From the NCBI GenBank assembly GCA_036961325.1, contig JBALVF010000002.1, positions 210,733 to 274,732 on the forward strand: a stretch of 64,000 bases of DNA. The letters are read 5' to 3'. Shown piece after piece: positions 40,963 to 52,471 of the stretch. A model generated the notes under the pieces. That model was given only the letters and a program-made list of their open reading frames with translations. It had not been told where the DNA came from and did no database searches. Source of the stretch: Cycloclasticus sp. GTDB taxonomy: Bacteria > Pseudomonadota > Gammaproteobacteria > Methylococcales > Cycloclasticaceae. A program made the translations under genes and the position numbers. The number at the start of each line of letters is the position of its first letter. The first letter of the stretch is position 1.

Positions 40963-42666
40963 TTATTTAATGAGAATAAATATGATATTTGCCAATAGGC
41001 TTAATAAAGCAATGCTTTTCCAGAAGATTAAAGGGTTGCGCTCTATTAATGGCGTGTGCTTTTTTTCGATAAACAGCTTGTTCGGATAGGACAGGTCGTG
41101 GATAAATTCAGATATTTCTTCATATCGCTTTGATGGGTTTCTCTTGACGATTTTTCTAATGGCTCCGTCCACCCATAGGGGAATATCAGGGTTGAATTGT
41201 TGTGCGGGGATGTATTGCAATTTACTCAGTGCTTTTTCGCCGTATTTCTCTCCGAAAGGCAGTTTTCCGGTGAGCATTTCATAAGTAATGACGCCGAGAG
41301 AAAAAGCATCTGAACGTGTGCTCGGCTGTTGCCCCATCAGGTATTCCGGTGCCGTGTAGTGTTGTGTTCCCAATAGGTTGAGGCGTAGAACGGGAGTCGC
41401 TATTTCTTCGATACCGGCAATTTTAGTCGAGCCGAAGTCTATAATGATGACCGTACCCTGGGTGTCGATAATGATGTTTTCAGGCTTCAGATCCTGATGA
41501 ATCATTTCTTTGCTATGAAATGCGCGTAGCCCCCGTGCTATCTGGCGCACAATGCCTCTTACATCGTGCACGCTGGGTAGTGGGTTGTCGCTCATCCAGT
41601 GCCTTAAGGTTTGGCCTTCGATATACTCTGTTACGTAATATAGGAATTGTCTGGGACGGGTCTGCTCGATAATTTTTAAAACATGGTTATTATCCAGGCG
41701 TCGACCAACCCATTCTTCATGCACGAACATATCGAGGTAAGTGGGGTCGTCAACGTAATTGATAGAGGGTGTTTTAATCACCACATGAGCGCCGGTATCT
41801 TCATCGGTTGCAAGATACAGCTGGGTGCGATTACTGGCGTGCAGTTCACGTTCAATACGATATCCATCCAGGATCATGCCGGCGTTTAAATCAGGCGGGA
41901 AGGGTAGCTCGGTTAATTTACGGTAGACTTCCTGATCATTAATTTGCGGTAGTTGATTGAAGCGAACGACCTGACAACTGACGTTGTCATCGCTGCCCGC
42001 TTTCATCGCTAAGGATGTGATTTCACGCGCAGCGCGGTCTAAATTGTTGGCGTTATCATTAACCTTCTCCAACATAAGACTATCGCTAACAAACTCGTGC
42101 ACGCCGTCGGTGGTTAATAAAAAGGTATCACCTTGTTCGAGTAAAAAATTGCTGTAGTCGATTTCTAAGTGCAGGTCGATACCCATGGCGCGCGTCAGAT
42201 AGTTCTTATCTTTAGAGACCCAAAAACGATGATCCTGGGTTAAACATTCTAGTTTAGCTTGCCGTATCCGGTAGATCCGTGTGTCACCGATATGAAATAG
42301 GTGTACCGTTGAGGACTTAACGATCAGAGCGCTCATCGTCGTGGCTAGCCCTTTATAAGCGTGGCTACTTTGCTGCGCCATTCCTAACATCCAGCGATTG
42401 GTCGCCACCAGCACTTTTTGTGCGGATGTTTTTACCGTCCAGGAGTCGGGGGTGCAGTAATAATCGCTCAATAAACTTTTAACGCACGTTTCACTCGCCA
42501 GTTTGCCCGCTTCGCAACCGCTGACACCATCGGCGATAACAATGACGATGCCTTTTTGTTCTAAAACGGGAGACTCGGGCAATAAGACGCCGTAACTATC
42601 CTGGTTCTCCTCTTTAACCCCTTTATCAGAAGATTGTCCGAGATCAATTAAAGCGTTTGATTGCAT
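40963..42666 (-). CDS. Bifunctional PP2C phosphatase / Ser-Thr protein kinase
   Basis: NQDS, ADGVSG, HIGDTR, TTDGVH, DDNVS (PP2C); VVIK, HQDLKPEN, DFG, APE (kinase). Confidence 0.92.
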   Translation of the reverse strand: MQSNALIDLGQSSDKGVKEENQDSYGVLLPESPVLEQKGIVIVIADGVSGCEAGKLASETCVKSLLSDYYCTPDSWTVKTSAQKVLVATNRWMLGMAQQSSHAYKGLATTMSALIVKSSTVHLFHIGDTRIYRIRQAKLECLTQDHRFWVSKDKNYLTRAMGIDLHLEIDYSNFLLEQGDTFLLTTDGVHEFVSDSLMLEKVNDNANNLDRAAREITSLAMKAGSDDNVSCQVVRFNQLPQINDQEVYRKLTELPFPPDLNAGMILDGYRIERELHASNRTQLYLATDEDTGAHVVIKTPSINYVDDPTYLDMFVHEEWVGRRLDNNHVLKIIEQTRPRQFLYYVTEYIEGQTLRHWMSDNPLPSVHDVRGIVRQIARGLRAFHSKEMIHQDLKPENIIIDTQGTVIIIDFGSTKIAGIEEIATPVLRLNLLGTQHYTAPEYLMGQQPSTRSDAFSLGVITYEMLTGKLPFGEKYGEKALSKLQYIPAQQFNPDIPLWVDGAIRKIVKRNPSKRYEEISEFIHDLSYPNKLFIEKKHTPLIERNPLIFWKSIALLSLLANIIFILIK

Positions 42667-42682: not shown

Positions 42683-44149
42683 TTAGGTCACATCAATTAG
42701 CTGAACAGTGCCATCTTCGAGGACTTCAGCCGTTTGACCTTTTGGTTCTTGTAAAAATATAAACATTAATAATAGTACCAGTCCGGCAGTAGCGCCAATC
42801 ACCATAAAAAATACCTGCGGTGAAACAAACGATAAAACGGTCAAAAAGGTTAAGCCCCCAACGTTACCATACGCACCGACCATGCCCGCAACCTGCCCCG
42901 TCATGCGACGCTGGATCAATGGTACCATCGCATACACCGCGCCAGAACCGCCTTTGGCAAACAGACCGCACATAATCGTACATAAAACCACCATCGGAAC
43001 CGCCCACGTTGGGCTGACTTGCGCCAGAATTAAAAACGTTACCGTGATGCCGGAAAACAAAATGACCAATGATTTTTTACGGCCTATTTTGTCGCTTAAT
43101 ATACCGCCACCAGGGCGCGCTACCAAATTCATTACGGGGTAAATTGCGGCCAACAAACCAGCCGTGACCGGCGATAGGCCGAACATATCAATATAAAATA
43201 ATGGCAACATAGAAACCAGTGCTAGTTCTGAGCCAAAGGTCACCATATAGGCGAGATCCAAAATCGCAACCTGTTTAAATTGATAACGGAATAAGTCGGG
43301 TACCGGCTTGGTAAAAATGTCTTTATTGACCTTAATAATTTGCCAGGCTTGATAACTATAAATAGCGACAATAGTGATATAGCCGATGTTGGCCGTTTGT
43401 TCGCTCATCCACGCCATTCCTGTAGGCGAGAGCTTCCAGATCAATAAGCCCAGCGCACCATAGATAGGCGTGCTCATCAGTAAATAAAGAACGAGGTCGC
43501 CTTTACTCGTGACCTCCATGCCGCCCACCTTTTTGGGTTTAAAGTATGTGGACCCTTTTGGTGTGTCGGTGACGGCAAAATAATAATAAACACCATAACT
43601 GCTCGCAATAATGGCAGTGATAGTTAAGGCATAACGCCATCCATCTTCGCCACCAAGCCACAAAGCTAAACTGGGTAAGATCATTGCGGAGGCGGCAGAA
43701 CCAAAATTCCCCCAACCACCATAAATACCCTGAGCTAACCCCGTTTGTCTAGCGGGGAACCATTCGCCAATCATGCGAATACCGACGACAAATCCCGCGC
43801 CGACAAAACCCAATAAGAACCGAGCCAATGCGAGTTGTTGAAAGGTCTGAGCCCAGGCAAAAAATAAACATAAAAACCCCGATACCACTAAAATGCCAGA
43901 AAACATTCTACGCGGACCATAACTGTCAACCATCATGCCGACGACGATTCGAGCGGGGATGGTCAGGGCTACATTAAGTATCAGTAAAACGGATACTTCC
44001 TGATTGCTTAGATTGAAGACATCACGAATAACAGACATTAATGGCGCGTGGTTGAACCACACCATGAAGCTTATAAAGAAGGCGATCCAGGTCGAGTGTA
44101 AAATTCGGATGTTACCGGTGAAAGAGAATAAGTTTATTTTTTGCGACAT
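42683..44149 (-). CDS. narK: NarK/NRT2-family nitrate/nitrite MFS transporter
   Basis: Nitrate-signature motifs GIYGGWGNFG, YMVTFGSEL, ARPGGGILSD, AGMVGAYGNVGG. Confidence 0.92.
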   Translation of the reverse strand: MSQKINLFSFTGNIRILHSTWIAFFISFMVWFNHAPLMSVIRDVFNLSNQEVSVLLILNVALTIPARIVVGMMVDSYGPRRMFSGILVVSGFLCLFFAWAQTFQQLALARFLLGFVGAGFVVGIRMIGEWFPARQTGLAQGIYGGWGNFGSAASAMILPSLALWLGGEDGWRYALTITAIIASSYGVYYYFAVTDTPKGSTYFKPKKVGGMEVTSKGDLVLYLLMSTPIYGALGLLIWKLSPTGMAWMSEQTANIGYITIVAIYSYQAWQIIKVNKDIFTKPVPDLFRYQFKQVAILDLAYMVTFGSELALVSMLPLFYIDMFGLSPVTAGLLAAIYPVMNLVARPGGGILSDKIGRKKSLVILFSGITVTFLILAQVSPTWAVPMVVLCTIMCGLFAKGGSGAVYAMVPLIQRRMTGQVAGMVGAYGNVGGLTFLTVLSFVSPQVFFMVIGATAGLVLLLMFIFLQEPKGQTAEVLEDGTVQLIDVT

Positions 44150-44185: not shown

Positions 44186-44201
44186 AGCAATGGCTATGCC
44201 A
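44186..44201 (-). promoter_or_regulatory. sigma54 -24/-12 promoter for narK
   Basis: Minus strand TGGCAT-AGCCA-TTGCT, 37 nt before the narK ATG. Confidence 0.8.
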
Positions 44202-44263: not shown

Positions 44264-44278
44264 GCACTAAAGTGGTGC
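44264..44278. promoter_or_regulatory. NtrC-type enhancer site
   Basis: GCAC-N7-GTGC (GCACTAAAGTGGTGC) between two divergent sigma54 promoters; half-site TGCACT near 44294. Confidence 0.7.
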
Positions 44279-44392: not shown

Positions 44393-44408
44393 TGGCATGT
44401 AATTTGCT
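44393..44408 (+). promoter_or_regulatory. sigma54 -24/-12 promoter for the nirB operon
   Basis: TGGCAT-GTAAT-TTGCT, 38 nt before the nirB ATG. Confidence 0.82.
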
Positions 44409-44445: not shown

Positions 44446-46971
44446 ATGAGTCAACCGAAGTTAGTCGTCATTGGTAATGGCATGGTAGGGCATAAGTTTT
44501 TGCAAGCCATGGTCAACAACGAGAGCAATAAGAAATATGAGATTATTACGTTTTGTGAAGAAACACGGCTAGCTTATGACCGAGTTCAGTTAACTTCTTT
44601 TTTTAACGGTAAAACAGCCGACGATCTATCTTTAGTAGAACCTGGCTTCTTCGAAGAAAACAATATCACCGTTCATACGGGTGATAGAGCAGCGCATATC
44701 GACCGTGATAAGCAGGTCGTTACTTCGGCCAACGGAATCAGCGTTGCATACGATAAGCTGGTGTTAGCGACGGGATCATTTCCATTTGTACCGCCTATTC
44801 CTGGCAATGAAAGAAAAAATTGCTTCGTCTATCGCACCATAGACGACCTAAACGATATCGCAACAGCTGGGAAAACGTCTAAGGTTGGCGTGGTTATCGG
44901 TGGTGGTTTATTAGGCCTTGAAGCCGCTAAAGCATTAAAAGATTTGGGTTTAAAAACACACGTTGTTGAATTTGCTCCTCGTTTGATGGCGGTGCAAATC
45001 GACGACGGTGCGGGTGCGTTGTTACGTAAAAAGATCGAGGAACTGGACGTAAGCGTACATACACAGAAGAACACGAAAAATATAGTTGATGGCGAAGAGT
45101 GCGTACACCGTATGAACTTTGCGGACGGCACACACATTGAAACAGACGTTATTCTTTTCTCAGCGGGTATTCGCCCAAGAGATGATATAGCACGAGATTG
45201 CGACTTAACCCTGGGCGCACGTGGCGGCATTGTTATCGATGATAACTGCCTGACATCGGATGAAAATATCTACGCCATCGGTGAGTGTGCGTTATGGGAC
45301 GGCAAAATATTTGGCTTGGTCGCGCCAGGTTATCAAATGGCGCAAGTCGTTGCCGATCAATTGTCGGACAAGCAAAATGCTTTTACCGGCGCAGATATGA
45401 GTACCAAATTAAAATTGATGGGTGTGGACGTCGCCAGCATCGGTGATGCACACGCAGCCACGGCGGGCGCGAAAGTTTATACCTACGTAAATGGCGCCGA
45501 TGATGTTTATAAGAAGATCGTCGTCAGCGAAGATAACAAGCGCTTATTGGGTGCTGTGCTGATTGGTGATACCGTCGATTACGGTAATCTGTTACAACTT
45601 AAATTGAATGATATCGCCTTACCCGAATACCCCGATGCGCTAATTCTACCGCAACGCGATGGCTCTGCCGCTACCGGTTTGGGCGTTGATGCCTTACCTG
45701 ATAATGCACAAATCTGCTCTTGCTTTGACGTATCAAAAGGCGCGCTTTGCCAAGCGGTATCAGACGGTGCAACGACCTTGGGCGCAATTAAAGAATGTAC
45801 GAGCGCAACAACGGGATGTGGTGGTTGTACGGCCTTGGTTGGACAGGTTCTGAATAAAGAATTAGAAAAACTGGGGATGGATGTTAATACCGACCTGTGC
45901 GAGCACTTTGCTTATACCCGTCAGGAAATGTACCACCTCGTACGCGTTGGTGGCATTAAAACGTTTGACGAAATGATTGAAAAACACGGTAAGGGATACG
46001 GTTGTGACATTTGTAAACCAACCACCGCGTCCATACTAGCGTCTTGCTGGAATGACTACGTATTAGAAAAGCCGCACGCCGGTCTGCAAGACACCAATGA
46101 TCGTTACCTGGCCAATATTCAAAAAAATGGCACATATTCGATTGTTCCGCGAATTGCCGCTGGTGAAATCACCCCCGATAAATTGATCGTACTGGGTCAG
46201 GTGGGTAAAAAATATAATTTGTACTGCAAAATCACTGGCGGTCAACGCGTGGACTTATTTGGTGCACGGCAGGAAGAGCTACCGCTTATCTGGAAAGAGT
46301 TAATTGACGCTGGTTTTGAAACCGGGCATGCCTATGGCAAATCGTTACGTACCGTTAAATCTTGCGTCGGCAGTACCTGGTGTCGTTATGGCGTTGCCGA
46401 TAGTGTAACGACCGCGATTGATTTAGAAAATCGTTATAAAGGTTTACGTTCGCCACATAAATTAAAGTTTGCCGTATCGGGTTGTACCCGTGAATGTGCA
46501 GAAGCCCAGAGCAAAGACGTGGGCCTTATCGCGACCGAAAACGGTTGGAATTTGTACCTGTGCGGTAACGGCGGAATGAAACCAAGACACGCCGATTTAT
46601 TCGCAACCGACCTGGATTATGAAACGGTGATCAAATATATCGACCGTTTCCTGATGTTCTATGTAAAAACGGGTGATCGTTTACAGCGCACCTCGACCTG
46701 GATGATGAATTTGGAAGGCGGCATTGATTATCTACGCGAAGTCGTTATCGAAGATTCACTTGGCTTGGCAGAAACGTTTGAGGAAGAAATGAAAACGGTC
46801 ATCGAGACGTATCAATGTGAGTGGAAAACAACCGTTGAAAGCGAAGAGAAATCTAAAACGTTCAACGCGTTTGTGAACTCAGATAAAGGCGATAGCCAAA
46901 TCGTATTCGTGCCGGAGCGCGATCAAATACGGCCCGCGCGTAAAGATGAAATTGTGGCAAAACTTAATTAA
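44446..46971 (+). CDS. nirB: NAD(P)H-dependent nitrite reductase large subunit
   Basis: GNGMVG and GGGLLGLE nucleotide-binding motifs, two BFD-like Cys clusters, KSCVGSTWC, GCTRECAE siroheme/Fe-S motif. Confidence 0.96.
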   Translation: MSQPKLVVIGNGMVGHKFLQAMVNNESNKKYEIITFCEETRLAYDRVQLTSFFNGKTADDLSLVEPGFFEENNITVHTGDRAAHIDRDKQVVTSANGISVAYDKLVLATGSFPFVPPIPGNERKNCFVYRTIDDLNDIATAGKTSKVGVVIGGGLLGLEAAKALKDLGLKTHVVEFAPRLMAVQIDDGAGALLRKKIEELDVSVHTQKNTKNIVDGEECVHRMNFADGTHIETDVILFSAGIRPRDDIARDCDLTLGARGGIVIDDNCLTSDENIYAIGECALWDGKIFGLVAPGYQMAQVVADQLSDKQNAFTGADMSTKLKLMGVDVASIGDAHAATAGAKVYTYVNGADDVYKKIVVSEDNKRLLGAVLIGDTVDYGNLLQLKLNDIALPEYPDALILPQRDGSAATGLGVDALPDNAQICSCFDVSKGALCQAVSDGATTLGAIKECTSATTGCGGCTALVGQVLNKELEKLGMDVNTDLCEHFAYTRQEMYHLVRVGGIKTFDEMIEKHGKGYGCDICKPTTASILASCWNDYVLEKPHAGLQDTNDRYLANIQKNGTYSIVPRIAAGEITPDKLIVLGQVGKKYNLYCKITGGQRVDLFGARQEELPLIWKELIDAGFETGHAYGKSLRTVKSCVGSTWCRYGVADSVTTAIDLENRYKGLRSPHKLKFAVSGCTRECAEAQSKDVGLIATENGWNLYLCGNGGMKPRHADLFATDLDYETVIKYIDRFLMFYVKTGDRLQRTSTWMMNLEGGIDYLREVVIEDSLGLAETFEEEMKTVIETYQCEWKTTVESEEKSKTFNAFVNSDKGDSQIVFVPERDQIRPARKDEIVAKLN

Positions 46972-46985
46972 GCGATAAGAAACGG

Positions 46986-47345
46986 ATGAATACTCAAATG
47001 GTTAATGAATTAAATAATAATGAAATTGATATCTGTGCGTTAACGGATCTTATTGAAGATGCCGGTATAGCAGCCTTGCTTGATGAGCTGCAGATCGCCC
47101 TGTTTTACGTTAAAAAAACAGAGCAAGTGTTTGCCCTAAGTAACTACGACCCGTTTAGTGAAGCAAACGTACTATCGCGTGGCATTATCGGAAGCATTGG
47201 TGATGAACTGGTCGTCGCTTCGCCGATCTACAAGCAGCATTTTAATCTTGCTACGGGACAATGTATTGAAGACGACAGCGTCGCCGTAACGGCTTACCCT
47301 GTAACAATAAAAAATGGCCGAATTCTTGTCGGTTTCGCCAGCTAA
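46986..47345 (+). CDS. nirD: Nitrite reductase small subunit
   Basis: NYDPFSEANVLSRG...VASPIYKQHFNL. Confidence 0.95.
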   Translation: MNTQMVNELNNNEIDICALTDLIEDAGIAALLDELQIALFYVKKTEQVFALSNYDPFSEANVLSRGIIGSIGDELVVASPIYKQHFNLATGQCIEDDSVAVTAYPVTIKNGRILVGFAS

Positions 47346-47359
47346 ATAAAGGCTTACTT

Positions 47360-48274
47360 ATGAATACAACGTATTACACCTTAGATGTTTTTACTAAAAC
47401 GGCGTTCCAGGGAGCGCAGATAGCTGTTTTTCCATTTGCAGAAAACTTGTCTGATGACCTGCTTCCGCTCATTGCTAAAGAACTTAATTTATCGGAAACG
47501 GTTTTTATTTATCCGTCGGAAGAAGGCAGTAATACGTTTAATATTAGAATTTTTTCCCCCAGAGGTGAGGTGGATTTTGCCGGTCATCCGATCCTGGCGA
47601 CCGCGCATGTATTAGCAGAAACAGGTCAGTTATCAATACAGGGCGATTATACGAGCATCACCTTGAATGAGAAATCAAAAACGATTGTTGCCAATATTTC
47701 CTTGCATGAGTCGGCAAATAAATTTGTCCAGTTCACCCTTCAATGTAACCCCGAAGTGGACCGTTTTACGCCACCTACTGAAGAGTTAGCGCGCTTTCTA
47801 TCGATTGATGAAAGTGATATTGATCAAACCCATTTTCATACCCGTTTAGTATCTGAAGGCCTGCCTTATTTAGTCGTGCCATTGTTGTCCCAAAGCGCTG
47901 TTAGACGAGCGCAATTCGATATTAAGGCGTGGAGTGAGTCCAGTGCGCCCGAAATGGCGGCACAGGAAATTCTTCTATTCAGTGCGAAAACGAATTCGAG
48001 CGATAGTAACTTTCATGGCCGTTTAGTGGGGCCGAGTATCGGCTTTAACGAAGATCCACCGATTGGTTCAGCGATGCCCGCTTTTTGTGGCTACCTGGCT
48101 TCGCACGATCATATTAGAAAAGGCACTTACAGTTTCGCGATCGATCGTGGCACGGTCGTAACGCGAAGAAGCTTATTACATATCGAAATGGATAAGCGCG
48201 TAGGTTGGCCGTTAACACTGAGGGTAGGCGGTGATTCGGTCTTAGTCAGCAAAAACGAACTACTGGTCAACTAA
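47360..48274 (+). CDS. PhzF-family isomerase-like protein
   Basis: DVFT, ELNLSETVF, EVDFAGHP, EDPPIGSA motifs; embedded in the nir/nas operon. Confidence 0.85.
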   Translation: MNTTYYTLDVFTKTAFQGAQIAVFPFAENLSDDLLPLIAKELNLSETVFIYPSEEGSNTFNIRIFSPRGEVDFAGHPILATAHVLAETGQLSIQGDYTSITLNEKSKTIVANISLHESANKFVQFTLQCNPEVDRFTPPTEELARFLSIDESDIDQTHFHTRLVSEGLPYLVVPLLSQSAVRRAQFDIKAWSESSAPEMAAQEILLFSAKTNSSDSNFHGRLVGPSIGFNEDPPIGSAMPAFCGYLASHDHIRKGTYSFAIDRGTVVTRRSLLHIEMDKRVGWPLTLRVGGDSVLVSKNELLVN

Positions 48275-48287
48275 GCGCGAGACAAGC

Positions 48288-50492
48288 ATGTTATTTGGAA
48301 GACATAAAAAGAACCCCATCAAAATGGTCGATAAACAGATCACCAAGTGGAGTTACGCCACCTGTGGTTATTGTTCTGTTGGCTGTTCGATAGAAATTGG
48401 CTCGAATGCAGACGGTAAAATAGTCGGCTCACGTGGCGTTGGTGGGGCGGACGTTAATCGTGGCAAGCTATGCGTAAAAGGCATTTTTGAACACGAGTTG
48501 TTCGAATCTTCAGGCCGAGGCGATAAGCCACTGATGCGCGATGCTATCGAAGAGAGCTATAAAGAAACGACTTGGGATGAAGCTACCAGCAAGGCGGCAA
48601 CAGAGATTCGTCGTATTCAAGAAACATATGGTCGTGATTCCTTCGCGGTTATTTCGACGGGTCAATTACTGACTGAAGAGTTCTACACCCTGGGTAAATT
48701 AACCCGTGGGCTTATCGGCACCAATAATTACGATGGCAACACCACCTTGTGTATGGCTTCTGCCGTTTCGGGCTACAAGCGCTCGTTCGGTTCAGATGGG
48801 CCACCGGGTTGTTACGAAGATTTTGAACACACAGAATGCTTAATGGCCTGGGGTTCGAACTTACCCGAACAGCACCCCATCATTTACTGGCGCTTTCAGG
48901 AAGCGCGTGAAAAACGCGACTTTCCTTTAATAGTTATCGACCCTCGCGTCACCATGTTGGCGCAAAAGGCAGACTATCATTTACCGATTACTCCAGGTAC
49001 AGATTTGGTATTGTTGAACGCATTAGCCTTCGTCATTCTTGATGAAGGTTTAGAGGACAGTGCGTACATTGAAGCAAACACAAACGGACTGGATGAACTA
49101 AAGGCAGAAGTCGCCAATTTCACCCCTGAATTAGCAGAGCCAATTTGTGGCATTGATGCTGAAACTATTCGTACCGTTGCGCGTATCTATGCAAAAGCTA
49201 AAACGGCGATGAGCATTTGGACTATGGGTATCAACCAAAGCACCCACGGTACCGACGGGGTAGTGGGCATCAATAATCTAAGCCTTATTACTGGCAATAT
49301 CGGCAAACCTGGCGGCACAAGCTTATCTATTACGGGTCAATGTAATGCCATGGGTACGCGTGAATGGTCATCTTGTTCTGGCTTACCCGGGTACCGATAT
49401 TTAGAAAGCGAAGCGGACCGAAATGAAATAGGTGAATTTTGGAATGTTGACCCTGAGTTCTTTCCGAAAAAACGTGGGATGGCGCAAACCGATATATTCC
49501 CGGCGATTGAGTCTGGTGAAATTAAGGGCATGTGGTTAGTTGCAACCAATCCAATGACGTCAATGGCGAATACCGAACGTACGCGTAATATACTGAAAAA
49601 ATTAGATTTTCTTGTGGTGCAAGATAGTTACGCCGACGTGGAAACCACGCAGTACGCACATTTGTATTTACCCGCCGCCACCTGGGCAGAAAAAGAAGGT
49701 GTGTTCACCAATACGGAACGGCGTGTCAATATCGTACGTAAAGCGGGTGATGCACCCGGTGATTCGAAATCAGATTTCGATATCTTTAACCTCATAGCCA
49801 AACACTTTCCGAATAACGAGAAAATGACATTTCCGGATAAGCCTGCTGGTGCGTTTGAGGAAATGAAAACGCTATCGAAAGGCCGCCTGGCTGATATCTC
49901 AGGCATGGATCACGACCTGATCGAAAAACAACGCGGCATTCAATGGCCCTATACCAAAGAACAAGCGGATAAAGGCGAGCTACCGCCAGCAGGTGGCAAG
50001 CGTTTATACACGGAAACTGCTTCCTTTCGCTTTGCCGATGGTAAGGCAAAACTTATCGCTATGCCGTTTGTTGATAATAACGAAGTACCCGACGAGCAAT
50101 ACCCTTTTTGGCTAAATTCGGGTCGTTTAGTCGAGCATTTTCACACACGCACCAAAACGGGCAAGCTCGGTAATACCAATAAATATAGCCCGATTCCTTT
50201 TATGGAAATTAACCCCGACGCGGCGATGGACTTAGGCATAGAGCAAGGCGAATACGTTCGCTGTGTATCACGGCGTGGTGATGCAGTTGTGATGGCAATG
50301 CTTACACAACGCGTGCCGGCAAATATGGTGTTTATTCCGTTTCATTACTATGACTGTGTGAACCGTTTATCGCTTGGTCTACTCGATCCATATTCGCGCC
50401 AACCTGCGTATAAGCAAGCGGCGATTAAAATCGAAAAATTGGAAGACCAAAAAGCCGCCGCTCAACTGAGCATGCAACGTCGTAATTTTTAA
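48288..50492 (+). CDS. nasA: Molybdopterin nitrate reductase catalytic subunit (assimilatory type, no Tat signal)
   Basis: CGYCSVGC...LCVKG Fe-S motif, TLCMASAV Mo-ligand loop, GQCNAMG, EKEGVFTNTERR; no RR leader and no C-terminal BFD domain. Confidence 0.85.
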   Translation: MLFGRHKKNPIKMVDKQITKWSYATCGYCSVGCSIEIGSNADGKIVGSRGVGGADVNRGKLCVKGIFEHELFESSGRGDKPLMRDAIEESYKETTWDEATSKAATEIRRIQETYGRDSFAVISTGQLLTEEFYTLGKLTRGLIGTNNYDGNTTLCMASAVSGYKRSFGSDGPPGCYEDFEHTECLMAWGSNLPEQHPIIYWRFQEAREKRDFPLIVIDPRVTMLAQKADYHLPITPGTDLVLLNALAFVILDEGLEDSAYIEANTNGLDELKAEVANFTPELAEPICGIDAETIRTVARIYAKAKTAMSIWTMGINQSTHGTDGVVGINNLSLITGNIGKPGGTSLSITGQCNAMGTREWSSCSGLPGYRYLESEADRNEIGEFWNVDPEFFPKKRGMAQTDIFPAIESGEIKGMWLVATNPMTSMANTERTRNILKKLDFLVVQDSYADVETTQYAHLYLPAATWAEKEGVFTNTERRVNIVRKAGDAPGDSKSDFDIFNLIAKHFPNNEKMTFPDKPAGAFEEMKTLSKGRLADISGMDHDLIEKQRGIQWPYTKEQADKGELPPAGGKRLYTETASFRFADGKAKLIAMPFVDNNEVPDEQYPFWLNSGRLVEHFHTRTKTGKLGNTNKYSPIPFMEINPDAAMDLGIEQGEYVRCVSRRGDAVVMAMLTQRVPANMVFIPFHYYDCVNRLSLGLLDPYSRQPAYKQAAIKIEKLEDQKAAAQLSMQRRNF

Positions 50493-50510
50493 CCTATACA
50501 AAACTCATTT

Positions 50511-52400
50511 ATGTTTGAAGTAAGAAGTGACGAACCAAAATATGCGTTTCTTTGGGATAAAGAAACTAAAGCCAAAAATATCTATGGTGATTCGATTGAA
50601 TTAACCTCTGATCAAGGCGGCTTGCATGGCGTTAGTTTAAATATTAACGGTGATGATGATTTAGGTGAAAACCCAAACCGTTACAAGCAGCACGGCTTTT
50701 ACTTCAATGCCGACAATTGTATTGGTTGTCACGCCTGTGAGGCCGCTTGTAGTGAGAAAAACGACAATCCGGCGCATATATCGTTCCGTTCAGTTGGCTT
50801 CGTAGAAGGCGGTACCTATCCCGATTATCAACGCCTGAATATTTCCATGGCGTGTAACCACTGTGATGACCCGGTTTGTTTAAAAGGTTGCCCAACACGT
50901 GCCTATACCAAATACGCAGAATACGGCGCGGTATTACAAGACCCCGATATTTGTTTTGGTTGCGGCTACTGTACCTGGGTTTGCCCGTACAACGCGCCCC
51001 AGCTTGACCCTGTAAAGGGCGAGGTGAGTAAATGTAATATGTGTGTGGATCGCTTAGAAGTTGGCTTAAAACCATCCTGCGTGTCTGCTTGCCTGGGTAA
51101 TGCGCTAGATTTTGGCGTGATCGAAAACGTGCCAGAAAACCGAGAAGAGTGCAAAACAGAGATACCCGGTTTCCCCACCACTGATATCACGCACCCGAAT
51201 ATTCGCTTCCAGCAGTCTCGGCAAACAAAACCTGAAATGACACGAACCGATTCGATGCCGCTTAAATACCATAAAGATGAAGACAGCGGGAAATACAAGC
51301 CGGTTGTCGATGCTAAAAAAGGCAAACAAAAACACTGGAACTGGAAACCTTTACTGCTAGCGCACGAAAGCTCACACGTGATTTTCACCTTGGCCACGCA
51401 AGCGATAGTCGGTGCCTTTGTGATGTTGATAGCAGGTGATTTACTTGGTTTACCAGCGTTTACCAGCATCACGTCATCGAGTGCTTACTTTGCCTTGCTG
51501 GTGGTAATGAATGTGTTGTTAACCATCGGCTTGTATAAATTGAATATGCACCTCGGTAAACCACACCGGTTCTACCGTGGTTTTTACAATTTACGTCATT
51601 CCCCCGTCAGTCGTGAAATTGCAGGGGTCAGCCTGTTTTATACCAGCTTGCTGGGTTATACCTTTTTTAGCTTATTCAATATTGACATCATCACCACGGC
51701 ATTTGGCGTGCTCGGCCTTATTTCAGGTCCTGTTGGGGTGTTTTATATGTACAAGTTGTACCGCATCAAAGCGCGTCCTTTTTGGAATCACTGGCAAACG
51801 GCCAGTTCCTTTATTGGTACTTGCCTGAGTCTAGGCGCGATCACCATTGCGCTAGTTGCTTTAGCCAGTGGCGATGTCAGCACGCTATCATTTAGTGTCT
51901 TAGTCGGCTGCATACTAGCCGGTCTATTACTTGAAGCAGTTGGACATATCGCCCACGCCAAAGACATTAGTAACGGAGAAGGTGAGGGCGCCGCGTCCTG
52001 GTATCTACAAACGACCCAATATGGTTGGCCTTTTATCATCAGTAATATCTTATTGGCATGCGCTATCGCGTTAGCGGGTGTATTAATTTTCACCCCAACT
52101 TCAATAGTCGTCTGGGTACTGTTATTCATCACCATGCTATCAACGGCGTTCATTAGACGTTCGTTATTCTTTGCCCTGGTTATTCCCACCACCATGCCGG
52201 GTGCGTTCTTCTGGAAAAACAAAGGTTTCGAAGAACACGCAAAAGAAACCGGCCTCGCGAATATGCAACAGGTTGGTGTTGAGTACGAGCATCACCGTAA
52301 ATTCAAGCTCAACGAGTTGATGGAGACGATCAAAACCACCACGTTTAATGAAGCGTACGAGCAAACAAAAAGCATATTTGTCTGGAAAAACGCTAAATAA
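50511..52400 (+). CDS. DmsB-like 4x[4Fe-4S] domain fused to DmsC-like membrane anchor
   Basis: CIGCHACEAAC, CNHCDDPVCLKGCP, CFGCGYCTWVCP, CNMC...SCVSAC; then about 8 TMs with HLGKPHRFY...SPVSREI. Confidence 0.88.
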   Translation: MFEVRSDEPKYAFLWDKETKAKNIYGDSIELTSDQGGLHGVSLNINGDDDLGENPNRYKQHGFYFNADNCIGCHACEAACSEKNDNPAHISFRSVGFVEGGTYPDYQRLNISMACNHCDDPVCLKGCPTRAYTKYAEYGAVLQDPDICFGCGYCTWVCPYNAPQLDPVKGEVSKCNMCVDRLEVGLKPSCVSACLGNALDFGVIENVPENREECKTEIPGFPTTDITHPNIRFQQSRQTKPEMTRTDSMPLKYHKDEDSGKYKPVVDAKKGKQKHWNWKPLLLAHESSHVIFTLATQAIVGAFVMLIAGDLLGLPAFTSITSSSAYFALLVVMNVLLTIGLYKLNMHLGKPHRFYRGFYNLRHSPVSREIAGVSLFYTSLLGYTFFSLFNIDIITTAFGVLGLISGPVGVFYMYKLYRIKARPFWNHWQTASSFIGTCLSLGAITIALVALASGDVSTLSFSVLVGCILAGLLLEAVGHIAHAKDISNGEGEGAASWYLQTTQYGWPFIISNILLACAIALAGVLIFTPTSIVVWVLLFITMLSTAFIRRSLFFALVIPTTMPGAFFWKNKGFEEHAKETGLANMQQVGVEYEHHRKFKLNELMETIKTTTFNEAYEQTKSIFVWKNAK

Positions 52401-52440: not shown

Positions 52441-52471
52441 CATCGAATGAATTTGCATTCGATGGATTTTT
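52441..52471 (+). terminator. Probable terminator of the nir/nas operon
   Basis: CATCGAATG-loop-CATTCGATG followed by GATTTTT. Confidence 0.5.

What the first reader, a model, noticed from the sequence alone, without database searches (positions are those of the whole stretch)
48288..52400. Membrane-anchored, cytoplasm-facing assimilatory nitrate reductase (NasA + DmsB-DmsC fusion)
The Mo subunit has the nitrate-reductase loop (TLCMASAV) but no Tat leader and no C-terminal BFD domain, and no NasB/NasC-type diaphorase gene is present. The next gene (18-nt gap) fuses a 16-Cys four-cluster Fe-S domain to a DmsC-type quinol-oxidising anchor. Established assimilatory enzymes take electrons from NAD(P)H or ferredoxin, and Nar/Nap use other partners. 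This sigma54/NtrC-type operon suggests a hybrid that reduces cytoplasmic nitrate with quinol and hands nitrite to NirBD.
Basis: partly seen in the sequence, partly recalled or inferred. Interest (0 to 1): 0.75.

Follow-up and report, generated by a model that had tools for sequence, protein, structure and literature searches.

The report
Membrane-anchored quinol-type assimilatory nitrate reductase
A Cycloclasticus nitrate-assimilation operon pairs a cytoplasmic nitrate reductase with a fused iron-sulfur/quinol-binding membrane anchor, which suggests a widespread, apparently undescribed way of feeding nitrate assimilation from the membrane quinol pool instead of NADH or ferredoxin.

Summary
Window 48288-50492 encodes a 734-aa Mo-bisPGD enzyme. 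It has the nitrate-reductase ligand motif (TLCMASAV), no Tat leader and no C-terminal [2Fe-2S] domain.

Eighteen bases downstream, 50511-52400 encodes a 629-aa fusion of a 16-Cys four-cluster ferredoxin (DmsB-like) to an 8-helix DmsC-family anchor. Both genes sit in a sigma54-type nirB-nirD-phzF operon, divergent from narK.

The pair is not a one-off:
- At least 583 species genomes carry the fusion (Cycloclasticus, Methylococcales, Thiotrichaceae, Porticoccaceae, chemosynthetic symbionts).
- In 77 of 77 testable loci the Mo gene lies directly upstream.

Three lines of evidence support a cytoplasm-facing quinol:nitrate oxidoreductase:
- The positive-inside charge bias puts the Fe-S side in the cytoplasm, like SoeC and opposite to E. 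coli DmsC.
- The DmsC quinol-site residues (His65, Ser82, Glu87) are invariant.
- The window's NirD lacks Rieske ligands, and no diaphorase gene is present in the window.

All of this is sequence inference; there is no biochemical or expression evidence. Nine literature searches found no description of such an enzyme. A 2020 phylogeny states that the Nas/Nap/Aio/Fdh clade has no canonical four-cluster or anchor partners.

Verdict: a new variant of known kinds (Nas catalytic subunit plus an inverted DmsBC/SoeBC-type module). Interest 0.72.

The parts
40963..42666 (-). PP2C phosphatase / Ser-Thr kinase fusion protein (567 aa), downstream of narK
   Evidence: Pfam PP2C_2 plus Pkinase. Found next to narK in many related loci, and in L090 directly after the fusion gene.
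42683..44149 (-). NarK-family nitrate/nitrite MFS transporter (488 aa), divergent from the nirB operon
   Evidence: NCBIfam TIGR00886, 319.9 bits against a cut-off of 311.7. Conserved near the module.
44186..44201 (-). Sigma54-type -24/-12 element TGGCATAGCCATTGCT, 36 nt upstream of the narK start
   Evidence: One of only two matches with at most 1 mismatch in the 64 kb.
44264..44278 (.). NtrC-type palindrome GCACTAAAGTGGTGC between the two sigma54 elements
   Evidence: Only match in the window. Expected 0.33 by chance, and 27 of 100 shuffles gave at least one match, so it is weak on its own.
44393..44408 (+). Sigma54-type -24/-12 element TGGCATGTAATTTGCT, 37 nt upstream of the nirB start
   Evidence: The same motif lies 47-77 nt (one at 180 nt) upstream of the first operon gene in 25 of 60 related loci, against a background of 0.010 per 260 nt.
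44446..46971 (+). nirB, NAD(P)H nitrite reductase large subunit (841 aa)
   Evidence: NCBIfam NF011565, 1360 bits against a cut-off of 883.
46986..47345 (+). nirD, small subunit (119 aa) without Rieske cluster ligands
   Evidence: NCBIfam TIGR02378, 115.5 bits against a cut-off of 74.65. The only cysteines are C17 and C93, with no CxH or CxxH motif (sequence).
47360..48274 (+). PhzF-family isomerase-like protein (304 aa), role in the operon unknown
   Evidence: Pfam PhzC-PhzF, 182.6 bits. Present between nirD and the Mo gene in 27 of 80 related loci.
48288..50492 (+). Catalytic Mo-bisPGD subunit (734 aa): Tat-less nitrate reductase with FS0 [4Fe-4S] and no C-terminal 2Fe-2S domain
48744..48767 (+). 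Codons for TLCMASAV (residues 153-160), with Cys155 as the predicted Mo ligand
   Evidence: It aligns with the CMASAV of D. desulfuricans NapA and with the C-H of a formate dehydrogenase. GNTTLCM(A/S)SAVSGY(K/R)RSFGSDGP is conserved in 11 orthologues.
50511..50684 (+). N-terminal extension of the fusion protein (residues 1-58), conserved, no signal peptide
50685..51215 (+). Four-cluster ferredoxin domain (residues 59-235), 16 invariant Cys, DmsB/PsrB fold
   Evidence: Foldseek to PsrB 2vpw_B gives a target-normalised TM-score of 0.79.
51216..51368 (+). Lys/Arg-rich linker (residues 236-286, 12 K+R) between the Fe-S domain and TM1
51369..52175 (+). DmsC-family anchor, 8 transmembrane helices (residues 287-555)
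   Evidence: Pfam PF04976. AlphaFold2 helices with pLDDT mostly above 90. Foldseek to ACIII ActC 6lod_C, E = 4.8e-4.
51549..51617 (+). TM2-TM3 loop HLGKPHRFYRGFYNLRHSPVSRE (residues 347-369) carrying the predicted quinol-site residues H347, S364 and E369
   Evidence: Aligned to E. coli DmsC His65, Ser82 and Glu87. Invariant in alignment A1. Residue roles come from PMC8076601.
52176..52400 (+). Cytoplasmic C-terminal tail (residues 556-629) with the conserved PTTMPGAFFWKN motif, absent from E. coli DmsC, plus the stop codon
52441..52464 (+). Terminator-like hairpin (9-bp stem) followed by a T-run, closing the operon

Best explanation
Proposed mechanism. The two genes encode a two-polypeptide, three-module complex on the cytoplasmic face of the inner membrane: a ubiquinol:nitrate oxidoreductase serving nitrate assimilation.

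Steps, all inferred:
1. [quoted passage not shown]
2. Its two electrons pass through the four [4Fe-4S] clusters of the fused DmsB-like domain to the FS0 cluster of the Mo subunit, and on to Mo-bisPGD liganded by Cys155.
3. Cytoplasmic nitrate, imported by NarK, is reduced to nitrite.
4. NirBD reduces the nitrite to ammonium with NAD(P)H.

Because quinol oxidation and nitrate reduction are on the same side of the membrane, the step itself should not be electrogenic. It takes nitrate reduction off the NAD(P)H/ferredoxin pool. Reductant from NADH would first pass through coupling dehydrogenases, and quinol-level reductant from sulfide or methane metabolism could be used without reverse electron flow.

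Shown by sequence analysis here:
- domain content, and absence of export signals;
- cytoplasmic charge bias of the Fe-S side;
- conservation of the quinol-site residues;
- strict gene pairing;
- the N-assimilation and sigma54 context.

Not shown: physical complex formation, quinol as donor, nitrate as substrate, and physiological role.
For: 1. Identity of the Mo subunit
- Ligand motif GNTTLCMASAVSGYKRSFG matches Nas (LCMSSAV.GYKRAFG) and Nap (CMASAV). E. coli FdhF and a solved formate dehydrogenase have C/U-H at this position.
- The best annotated relatives in the plasmid collection, at 35-39% identity, are assimilatory nitrate reductases.
- Identity is 34-39% to Nas, 29-36% to NapA, 28% to FdhF, and 23-24% to DmsA and SoeA.
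- PGAP names it 'nitrate reductase'.

2. Partnership
- The Mo gene ends directly upstream of the fusion in 77 of 77 loci with enough upstream DNA (median gap 77 nt), across at least 583 species genomes.
- A fusion only 42% identical still sits beside a 67%-identical Mo gene in a narK / PP2C-kinase / nirBD cluster.

3. Orientation
- No leader on either protein.
- There are 8 TM helices (AlphaFold2 mean pLDDT 85.9, pTM 0.86).
- Mean K+R over 50 sequences is 25.6 on the Fe-S side against 0.7 on the opposite side.
- With controls, the counts are: window 11:0, SoeC (cytoplasm-facing) 9:0, E. coli DmsC (periplasm-facing) 2:5.

4. Quinol site
- The fusion is colinear with E. coli DmsB plus DmsC.
- H347, S364 and E369 (DmsC His65, Ser82, Glu87) are invariant in 50 sequences.
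- Mutation of DmsC His65 blocks quinol oxidation according to PMC8076601.

5. No alternative donor at hand
- No BFD domain on the Mo subunit.
- No diaphorase gene in the window.
- NirD lacks Rieske ligands.
- In Methylobacter the pair sits next to a complete conventional diaphorase plus NasA-BFD set, which implies that the two systems differ in donor.

6. Assimilatory regulation
- Sigma54 elements and an NtrC-type site are present in the window.
- Sigma54 elements lie upstream of the operon in 25 of 60 related loci, including directly upstream of the Mo gene where it is the first gene.
Against: - No expression, activity or localisation data. Three metatranscriptome runs held nothing from this locus.
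- The Mo subunit reaches no curated NCBIfam cut-off: NasC 487.5 against 1100, haloarchaeal NasA 470 against 1000. Its top score is the broad Fdh-alpha model, 562 against 666.
- In my small NJ tree the clade's position relative to Nas and Nap is unresolved, with bootstraps of 22-52%.
- DmsB-type clusters are usually low-potential. Whether they are tuned for ubiquinol in these aerobes is unknown.
- In the Thiotrichaceae-type clusters a genuine Rieske NasG-like protein is present. As in Paracoccus, it could deliver NADH-derived electrons.
- DmsC Ser62, one of the four listed quinone-site residues, is Leu here.
- A complex model could not be computed with the tools available.
Confidence: 0.62

Rival explanations
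1. Same complex, different purpose. It is a quinol-oxidising nitrate reductase used mainly as an electron sink or for redox balancing under hypoxia (dissimilatory, Nap-like in role), and only incidentally supplies nitrite for assimilation.
For: - Hosts are microaerophilic or gradient organisms (methanotrophs, thiotrophs, hydrocarbon degraders).
- A non-electrogenic quinol oxidase is what a redox valve looks like (inference).
- Methylobacter carries a conventional NADH-type Nas right beside it, so the pair could have a separate job.
- NirBD also serves in nitrite detoxification and DNRA in other bacteria (PMC4914600).
Against: - Sigma54/NtrC-type promoter elements, not an oxygen-responsive arrangement, precede the operon in the window and in 25 of 60 related loci.
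- The module is embedded with nirB(D), narK and the same kinase across distant lineages.
- No respiratory accessory genes are in the cluster.
Confidence: 0.15
2. The fused protein is an electron relay and tether, but quinol is not the donor. The four-cluster domain receives electrons from a cytoplasmic source (the NirB/NasB flavin-FeS module, a Rieske NasG-like protein, or a ferredoxin). The DmsC domain only localises or regulates the enzyme at the membrane, for example next to NarK.
For: - In Paracoccus, NasC is fed by NasB through the Rieske protein NasG (established knowledge).
- Thiotrichaceae-type clusters encode a NasB-like NirB plus a true Rieske protein (CPH...CPLH) immediately upstream of the Mo gene.
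- NirB is co-transcribed in most loci.
Against: - The quinol-site residues H347, S364 and E369 are invariant across 50 sequences down to 27% identity. That is hard to explain for a passive tether.
- In the window and its relatives NirD has no cluster ligands.
- Some loci have the Mo-fusion pair as its own sigma54 unit without an adjacent nirB.
- Eight conserved helices are costly for a mere anchor.
Confidence: 0.12
3. The Mo enzyme acts on another substrate (formate, chlorate/perchlorate, selenate, arsenite) and feeds or drains the quinone pool like SoeABC or the proposed FqoABC. The nas context is coincidental.
For: - The highest NCBIfam score is to the broad Fdh-alpha model (562 bits), and the top solved-structure match is a formate dehydrogenase.
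- No Nas model cut-off is reached.
- Cytoplasm-facing DmsC-type complexes known so far are dehydrogenases (PMC8076601).
Against: - The formate dehydrogenase His next to the Mo ligand is Met here, as in every nitrate reductase aligned.
- The Cys ligand is present, unlike in AioA (PMC7331816).
- Linkage to nirB, narK and sigma54 promoters holds across many lineages.
- Oxidising nitrite to reduce ubiquinone is thermodynamically uphill (established redox potentials).
Confidence: 0.05
4. The complex faces the periplasm after all, exported by an unrecognised route, and is a Nap/Dms-like respiratory enzyme.
For: All characterised DmsC-type anchors except SoeC carry their partners on the periplasmic side (PMC8076601).
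Against: - No Tat or Sec leader on either protein in any of the 11 orthologues examined.
- The start codons are fixed by in-frame stops.
- There is a strong positive-inside bias toward the Fe-S side, the reverse of E. coli DmsC.
- A 51-residue linker with 12 K+R precedes TM1.
Confidence: 0.02

Closest known systems
Assimilatory nitrate reductases NasA/NasC/NarB (Klebsiella NasA, B. subtilis NasC, Synechococcus NarB, Paracoccus NasC)
   Same: - Cytoplasmic Mo-bisPGD enzyme with an N-terminal [4Fe-4S] cluster and a Cys ligand in a C-M-(A/S)-S-A motif.
- About 730 aa, the size of the short NarB/NasC type.
- Sits with nirB(D) and a NarK transporter under nitrogen-type regulation.
   Different: - Only 34-39% identical, and a separate clade with 100% bootstrap.
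- Below all curated Nas cut-offs.
- The electron-input module is a membrane-integral four-cluster/DmsC fusion instead of a BFD domain plus diaphorase, a Rieske NasG, ferredoxin or flavodoxin.
SoeABC sulfite:quinone oxidoreductase (Allochromatium vinosum, Aquifex aeolicus)
   Same: - The only described NrfD/DmsC-type complex whose Mo and four-cluster subunits are held to face the cytoplasm (PMC8076601).
- No Tat leader, and an 8-helix anchor with the His65 equivalent.
- The same Arg-rich TM2-TM3 loop and the same K+R sidedness: 9:0 against 11:0 here.
   Different: - The catalytic subunit is unrelated beyond the superfamily: 24% identity over 247 aa.
- Proposed electron flow is the reverse (quinol to substrate).
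- The B and C subunits are fused here and separate in Soe.
- The anchor is no closer to SoeC (29% over 70 aa) than to DmsC (26% over 148 aa).
E. coli DmsABC (and YnfFGH) DMSO/selenate reductases
   Same: - The fusion is colinear with DmsB followed by DmsC.
- 38% identity to DmsB, four Cys groups, a Pfam DmsC match, and quinol-site residues His65, Ser82 and Glu87 conserved.
   Different: - DmsAB are Tat-exported and periplasmic, and the charge bias is opposite.
- DmsA belongs to a different clade: 23% identity, and it uses a Ser Mo ligand (established knowledge).
- The subunits are not fused, and there is no extended C-terminal tail.
Respiratory nitrate reductase NarGHI
   Same: Quinol-dependent, membrane-bound, with the active site in the cytoplasm. 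In mycobacteria it can also serve assimilation (established knowledge).
   Different: - NarG is a distant type II enzyme with an Asp ligand: narG model 62.6 bits on a 74-residue stretch.
- The NarI anchor is a di-haem cytochrome b that oxidises quinol at the periplasmic face, which makes Nar electrogenic. Here the haem-less anchor should oxidise quinol at the cytoplasmic face.
Periplasmic nitrate reductase NapA with the NapGH/NapC quinol dehydrogenases
   Same: The Mo ligand motif CMASAV is identical, identity to monomeric NapA is 36%, and electrons ultimately come from quinol.
   Different: NapA has a Tat leader and NapD, NapB or NapC partners. None of these is present here.
B. subtilis ForCE (YjgC/YjgD) noncanonical menaquinone-linked formate dehydrogenase
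   Same: A cytoplasmic member of the same Fdh/Nas/Nap clade that is linked to the quinone pool by an unusual partner (PMC8808070). YjgC is among the top solved-structure matches at 369 bits.
   Different: It is a formate dehydrogenase. Its partner is a small non-CISM protein, not a four-cluster/DmsC module, and electron flow is into the quinone pool.

Membership tests
Assimilatory nitrate reductase catalytic subunit (NasA/NasC/NarB) | N-terminal CxxCxxxC...C [4Fe-4S] motif plus Mo-bisPGD binding domains | tested here: met
   C26, C29, C33 and C62. Pfam Molybdop_Fe4S4, Molybdopterin and Molydop_binding.
Assimilatory nitrate reductase catalytic subunit (NasA/NasC/NarB) | Cys Mo ligand followed by Met (C-M-A/S-S-A), not the Sec/Cys-His of formate dehydrogenases | tested here: met
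   TLCMASAV at 153-160. Aligned with Nas, Nap and FdhF sequences.
Assimilatory nitrate reductase catalytic subunit (NasA/NasC/NarB) | Cytoplasmic: no Tat signal peptide | tested here: met
   The N-terminus MLFGRHKKNPIK is fixed by an upstream stop, and all 11 orthologues start the same way.
Assimilatory nitrate reductase catalytic subunit (NasA/NasC/NarB) | Score above the curated family cut-off (NCBIfam NasC NF047855, NasA NF041323) | tested here: not met
   487.5 against 1100, and 470 against 1000.
Assimilatory nitrate reductase catalytic subunit (NasA/NasC/NarB) | Falls inside the Nas clade in a phylogeny | tested here: inconclusive
   In an NJ tree of 21 sequences it is a separate 100%-supported clade. 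The nodes joining it to Nas or Nap have 22-52% support.
Assimilatory nitrate reductase catalytic subunit (NasA/NasC/NarB) | Clustered and co-regulated with assimilatory nitrite reductase and a nitrate transporter | tested here: met
   Window operon, 47 of 80 related loci with nirB or nirD upstream, and sigma54 elements.
Assimilatory nitrate reductase catalytic subunit (NasA/NasC/NarB) | A known electron-input module (C-terminal 2Fe-2S domain with NAD(P)H diaphorase, Rieske NasG, or soluble ferredoxin/flavodoxin) | tested here: not met
   No BFD domain, no diaphorase in the window, and NirD without cluster ligands. Use of a soluble ferredoxin cannot be excluded from sequence.
Assimilatory nitrate reductase catalytic subunit (NasA/NasC/NarB) | Nitrate reductase activity required for growth on nitrate | not testable with these tools
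   Needs genetics and enzymology.
DmsABC-type complex iron-sulfur molybdoenzyme (B and C subunits) | Four-cluster protein with four Cys groups | tested here: met
   16 Cys, all invariant in 50 sequences. NCBIfam DmsB gives 162 bits, below its cut-off of 214. Fold matches PsrB, ArrB and FdnH.
DmsABC-type complex iron-sulfur molybdoenzyme (B and C subunits) | Haem-less 8-helix DmsC/NrfD-type anchor with the quinol-site His65/Glu87 | tested here: met
   Pfam PF04976 at 62.9 bits against a cut-off of 22.3. Eight helices in the AlphaFold2 model. H347 and E369 invariant.
DmsABC-type complex iron-sulfur molybdoenzyme (B and C subunits) | Catalytic and Fe-S subunits exported by Tat to the periplasmic face | tested here: not met
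   No Tat leader. The positive-inside bias is reversed relative to E. coli DmsC.
DmsABC-type complex iron-sulfur molybdoenzyme (B and C subunits) | DmsA-type catalytic subunit | tested here: not met
   23% identity to E. coli DmsA. dmsA_ynfE model 142 bits against a cut-off of 778.
SoeABC (cytoplasm-facing sulfite:quinone oxidoreductase) | Tat-less Mo and Fe-S subunits on the cytoplasmic side of an inverted DmsC-like anchor | tested here: met
   Same K+R sidedness as an Azospirillum SoeC-like protein encoded next to xsc. Orientation is predicted, not measured.
SoeABC (cytoplasm-facing sulfite:quinone oxidoreductase) | SoeA-type catalytic subunit | tested here: not met
   24% identity over 247 aa to the SoeA-like protein of L094.
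NapA periplasmic nitrate reductase | Twin-arginine leader and NapD/NapB/NapC/NapGH partners | tested here: not met
   No leader. NapA models score 393-408 bits against cut-offs of 904-931. No nap accessory genes in the operon.
NarGHI respiratory nitrate reductase | NarG-type subunit, NarH, and the di-haem cytochrome b NarI | tested here: not met
   narG model 62.6 bits against a cut-off of 1084, and narH 53.2 against 524. The anchor is DmsC-type, not NarI.

The most novel reading that the evidence does not exclude
The complex is not just a non-electrogenic shunt. It would be an energy-conserving assimilatory enzyme. The roughly 0.3 V drop from ubiquinol to nitrate would be used by the NrfD/DmsC-type anchor, whose family is proposed to conduct ions (PMC8076601), to release the quinol protons to the periplasm or to pump protons. 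Nitrate assimilation would then contribute to the proton motive force.

If so, this would define a third bioenergetic class of bacterial nitrate assimilation. It would dominate in methanotrophs, hydrocarbon degraders and chemosynthetic symbionts, and it would change reductant and ATP budgets in their metabolic models.
Probability: 0.12. Interest if true: 0.88.

Novelty: new variant of a known kind. Interest (0 to 1): 0.72.

Why it matters
1. Textbook assimilatory nitrate reductases are soluble and are driven by NAD(P)H or by ferredoxin/flavodoxin. A quinol-driven, membrane-anchored form would add a further electron-donor class.

2. It contradicts the published generalisation that no member of the Fdh/Nas/Aio/Nap clade associates with the canonical four-cluster and anchor subunits (PMC7331816). 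It would also be a second cytoplasm-facing DmsC-type complex after SoeABC, and the first proposed to run as a reductase.

3. It occurs in at least 583 species genomes of ecologically important Gammaproteobacteria: methanotrophs, Cycloclasticus oil degraders, Thiotrichaceae, and Solemya and Lamellibrachia symbionts. For these organisms NAD(P)H is costly, because it comes from reverse electron flow or competes with methane monooxygenase.

4. The anchor gene is currently annotated as 'DMSO reductase anchor/iron-sulfur subunit' or even 'aspartate carbamoyltransferase'. That can mislead metabolic reconstructions into predicting DMSO respiration and into mis-assigning the reductant cost of nitrate use.

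Tried and rejected
- Formate dehydrogenase reading. The top NCBIfam hit (Fdh-alpha, below cut-off) and the top solved-structure hit suggested it. I rejected it because the catalytic His is Met, as in all nitrate reductases aligned, and because of the gene context.
- Hidden leader peptides. Both ORFs begin at the first start codon after an in-frame stop, and orthologues share the same N-termini.
- NirD as a NasG-like electron shuttle. The window's NirD has no CxH/CxxH ligands. The Thiotrichaceae-type clusters do have a true Rieske protein, so this is kept as a rival.
- A diaphorase elsewhere in the window. Only the flavin domain of NirB matches.
- Expression evidence. No RNA run holds the locus, and laying three metatranscriptomes gave only three short spurious pieces.
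- Literature. Nine full-text searches combining Nas/nasA with DmsC, dmsB, NrfD, membrane anchor, quinol, ubiquinol, Cycloclasticus, Methylomonas and SoeABC found no description of this architecture. Subscription-only papers were not searched.
- Plasmid collection. It holds no full-length fused homologue.
- Complex structure prediction. It was not possible: the tool folds single chains of at most 1200 residues and accepts only window or database proteins.
- Phylogeny. A small NJ tree could not resolve whether the clade is sister to Nas or to Nap.

Full report
**What is there**

The + strand between 44446 and 52400 carries five tightly spaced genes, with gaps of 13-18 nt:
- nirB (841 aa; NCBIfam 1360 bits against a cut-off of 883);
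- nirD (119 aa);
- a PhzF-family gene (304 aa);
- a 734-aa molybdopterin enzyme at 48288-50492;
- a 629-aa protein at 50511-52400.

A terminator-like hairpin follows at 52441-52464. Divergently transcribed are a NarK-family transporter (42683-44149) and a PP2C/Ser-Thr kinase fusion (40963-42666).

The 296-bp intergenic region holds the only two sigma54 -24/-12 matches with at most 1 mismatch in the 64 kb. There is one for each direction, 36-37 nt from the start codons. Between them lies the window's only NtrC-type palindrome, GCACTAAAGTGGTGC.

Exact-sequence look-up places the proteins in Cycloclasticus sp. There NCBI calls the Mo protein 'nitrate reductase' and the second protein 'dimethyl sulfoxide reductase anchor subunit'.

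**Checking the observation**

The Mo protein has the Fe4S4, Molybdopterin and Molydop_binding domains and nothing after residue 711, so there is no BFD-type C-terminal domain. Its FS0 cysteines are C26, C29, C33 and C62, and TLCMASAV sits at residues 153-160. The N-terminus MLFGRHKKNPIK cannot be extended, because an in-frame stop lies just upstream. It has no twin-arginine or hydrophobic region.

The second protein has 16 Cys in four groups between residues 70 and 194. It also has a Pfam DmsC match over residues 285-556. Concatenated E. coli DmsB plus DmsC aligns colinearly along it.

**Is the Mo enzyme a nitrate reductase?**

HMM scores alone are ambiguous. The broad Fdh-alpha model scores highest (562 bits, below its cut-off), followed by NasC (487.5), haloarchaeal NasA (470) and NapA (408). 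None reaches its cut-off.

The residue-level evidence is clearer:
- Against a solved formate dehydrogenase the ligand region reads C-H. Against D. desulfuricans NapA it reads the same C-M-A-S-A-V as here.
- In a 21-sequence alignment, all 11 orthologues carry GNTTLCM(A/S)SAVSGY(K/R)RSFGSDGP.
- In the same alignment, conventional Nas proteins carry LCMSSAV.GYKRAFG, NapA carries CMASAV.GF, and E. coli FdhF carries V-U-H-G-P-S.

The best annotated relatives in the plasmid collection, at 35-39% identity, are 'nitrate reductase' or NasA-CysJ proteins. One monomeric NapA scores 36%. Pairwise identity is 34-39% to Nas, 29-36% to NapA, 28% to FdhF, and 23-24% to DmsA and a SoeA-like protein.

In an NJ tree the orthologues form their own 100%-supported clade. 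Its attachment to Nas or to Nap is unresolved. I conclude it is a nitrate reductase of the Nas/Nap lineage, but a distinct subfamily.

**How general is the pairing?**

The fusion has thousands of database relatives (3708 hits at E<=1e-5 among the 8000 candidates scored). The 120 best listed are 64-99% identical and nearly all full-length, from Cycloclasticus, Methylobacter, Methylomonas, Methyloglobulus and Pseudomonadales.

They add the following groups:
- Crenothrix, Methyloprofundus and Methylomicrobium lacus;
- Thiotrichaceae (Cocleimonas, Leucothrix);
- Porticoccaceae, Cellvibrionales, Arenicellales and Sedimenticolaceae;
- the Solemya velum and Lamellibrachia symbionts.

In the 80 loci fetched, the Mo gene's 3' end lies just upstream of the fusion in 77. 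The other three have less than 400 nt of upstream DNA. The median gap is 77 nt. A nirB-type gene, or nirD where the contig is cut, lies upstream in 47 loci. narK and the PP2C/kinase gene are frequent neighbours.

Two cluster types exist:
- The window type has NirB, a ligand-less NirD and PhzF.
- A Thiotrichaceae/symbiont type has a NasB-like NirB and a genuine Rieske protein (CPH...CPLH).

The Mo-fusion pair is the constant element across both. A fusion only 42% identical, from a metagenome, still sits between a 67%-identical Mo gene with the same motif and the PP2C/kinase, nirB and nirD genes. At 31% identity the fused anchor instead accompanies an unrelated Tat-less Mo enzyme, so fused cytoplasmic anchors are a wider phenomenon.

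Sigma54 elements lie 47-77 nt (one at 180 nt) upstream of the first operon gene in 25 of 60 loci, against a background of 0.010 per 260 nt. This includes five loci where the Mo gene itself is the first gene.

**Orientation**

AlphaFold2 with a 50-sequence alignment gave mean pLDDT 85.9 and pTM 0.86. The model shows:
- a ferredoxin domain;
- a linker;
- eight transmembrane helices (287-311, 325-347, 365-388, 392-417, 429-453, 458-487, 505-527, 532-555);
- a helical C-tail.

Foldseek matched the N-domain to PsrB (target-normalised TM-score 0.79), ArrB and FdnH. It matched the membrane domain to the NrfD-like ActC/ActF subunits of alternative complex III.

Because the Fe-S domain has no export signal and is fused before TM1, it should stay in the cytoplasm. 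With eight helices, the C-tail should too. The positive-inside rule agrees. Over 50 sequences, the loops on the Fe-S side carry on average 25.6 K+R, against 0.7 on the opposite side.

I repeated the count conservatively, using only 15 flanking residues at each terminus, and added controls:

| Protein | K+R, Fe-S side : opposite side | Note |
|---|---|---|
| Window | 11:0 | |
| Methylomonas | 11:1 | |
| 42% relative | 13:0 | |
| Azospirillum SoeC-like protein | 9:0 | encoded next to xsc; stands in for SoeC, which is held to be inverted (PMC8076601) |
| E. coli DmsC | 2:5 | periplasm-facing control |

So the anchor has the SoeC-type orientation, the reverse of DmsC.

**Is the quinol site retained?**

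The review of NrfD-like subunits lists Ser62, His65, Ser82 and Glu87 as the DmsC quinone site. It notes that replacing His65 blocks quinol oxidation. In the alignment these correspond to L344, H347, S364 and E369. H347, L348, G349, S364, R368 and E369 are invariant across 50 sequences down to 27% identity. That degree of conservation argues for a working quinone pocket rather than a passive tether. The pocket now lies on the cytoplasmic side.

**Where else could electrons come from?**

The usual Nas inputs are absent in the window:
- no BFD domain on the Mo subunit;
- no separate diaphorase;
- NirD cannot bind a cluster.

In Methylobacter the pair is followed immediately by a 405-aa diaphorase and an 880-aa NasA with a BFD domain. 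An NtrBC-like two-component system is encoded upstream of the pair on the opposite strand. Two complete systems side by side make most sense if they use different donors.

**Proposed mechanism (inferred)**

1. Ubiquinol is oxidised at the cytoplasmic face of the anchor.
2. Electrons run through four [4Fe-4S] clusters to FS0 and then to Mo.
3. Nitrate imported by NarK is reduced to nitrite.
4. NirBD converts nitrite to ammonium.

Both half-reactions are on the same side of the membrane, so the step should be non-electrogenic, unlike NarGHI. It spares NAD(P)H, and NADH-derived electrons can pass through coupling dehydrogenases first. The phyletic pattern fits organisms for which NAD(P)H is expensive: thiotrophs, methanotrophs and obligate hydrocarbon degraders. 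That last point is an argument from physiology, not a test.

**Comparison with known systems**

- Functionally, this would be a Nas.
- Architecturally, it is a complex iron-sulfur molybdoenzyme of the DmsABC/SoeABC kind.
- In orientation, it is closest to SoeABC.

It fails membership tests for DmsABC (no Tat export, wrong catalytic clade), SoeABC (wrong catalytic subunit), Nap (no leader, no Nap partners) and Nar (different catalytic subunit and anchor). Within Nas it meets the catalytic-site, localisation and context criteria. It does not meet the curated HMM cut-offs or the known electron-input modules.

Wells et al. 2020 state that none of the Fdh/NasA-NasC/AioA/NapA clade is associated with the canonical four-cluster or membrane-anchor subunits. 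Calisto and Pereira 2021 list no nitrate-assimilation complex among NrfD-like systems, and give SoeABC as the only N-side-oriented one. Nine full-text searches found no description of this enzyme. Genome papers on carriers' relatives simply call the gene nasA.

**Limits**

- Everything rests on sequence, a single-chain model and gene context.
- No transcript evidence could be found.
- The phylogeny is small and distance-based.
- The complex could not be modelled.
- The literature library omits subscription-only papers, so an existing description cannot be excluded.

**Verdict**

The architecture is a new variant assembled from known modules, it is widespread, and it can be tested directly.

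Noticed in passing
window 47360-48274: A PhzF-family (trans-2,3-dihydro-3-hydroxyanthranilate isomerase-like) gene sits between nirD and the nitrate reductase gene. It keeps that position in 27 of the 80 related loci (Cycloclasticus, Methylococcales, Porticoccaceae), but is absent from the Thiotrichaceae-type clusters. No role in nitrate assimilation is known to me.
   Followed up: partly
window 40963-42666: A single protein combines a PP2C phosphatase with a Ser/Thr kinase and a C-terminal hydrophobic tail. It is encoded next to narK. The same gene accompanies narK or the fusion gene across distant lineages, including locus L090, which suggests phospho-regulation of nitrate uptake or reduction.
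   Followed up: partly
L010 11924-15899 (Methylobacter); also L028 and L075: Directly downstream of the Mo-fusion pair lie a 405-aa NasC/NasB-type NAD(P)H diaphorase and an 880-aa conventional NasA with a C-terminal BFD [2Fe-2S] domain. An NtrBC-like two-component system is encoded upstream on the opposite strand. These genomes therefore carry two different nitrate reductase systems side by side.
   Followed up: partly
L061 4737-7545 (Thiotrichaceae): In the Thiotrichaceae/symbiont cluster type the nitrite reductase is a NasB-like NirB, 33-37% identical to the window's, with two BFD-domain matches. It is followed by a genuine Rieske protein (CPH...CPLH). The window's NirD has lost the cluster ligands.
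   Followed up: partly
L092 2100-5955: A fused four-cluster/DmsC protein 31% identical to the window's lies next to an unrelated 757-aa Tat-less molybdoenzyme (23% identity) outside any nitrogen cluster. Many 440-650-aa fusions at 30-50% identity appear among the 150 best of the 532 representative clusters at E<1e-30. Cytoplasm-facing fused anchors may serve several enzyme types.
   Followed up: partly
proteins P0005, P0031, P0060, P0105: Public records name several orthologues of the fusion 'aspartate carbamoyltransferase'. Others are named 'DMSO reductase iron-sulfur subunit' or 'anchor subunit'. These are annotation errors that could propagate.
   Followed up: no
window 48288-48350 and orthologues: All 11 orthologues of the Mo subunit start with a conserved MLFGRxxKNP(I/V)xxxDK extension before the FS0 cysteines, which conventional NasA lacks. 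It might be a vestigial leader or a chaperone-binding peptide, as in NarG.
   Followed up: no
window 50490-50513: The Mo gene and the fusion gene are in the same reading frame, separated only by TAA and five codons. There is no obvious Shine-Dalgarno sequence before the fusion's ATG, so translation may be coupled.
   Followed up: no
window 52176-52397: The fusion carries a 74-residue cytoplasmic C-terminal tail with a nearly invariant PTTMPGAFFWKN motif. E. coli DmsC and the SoeC-like protein lack it. It could contact the Fe-S domain or the Mo subunit.
   Followed up: no
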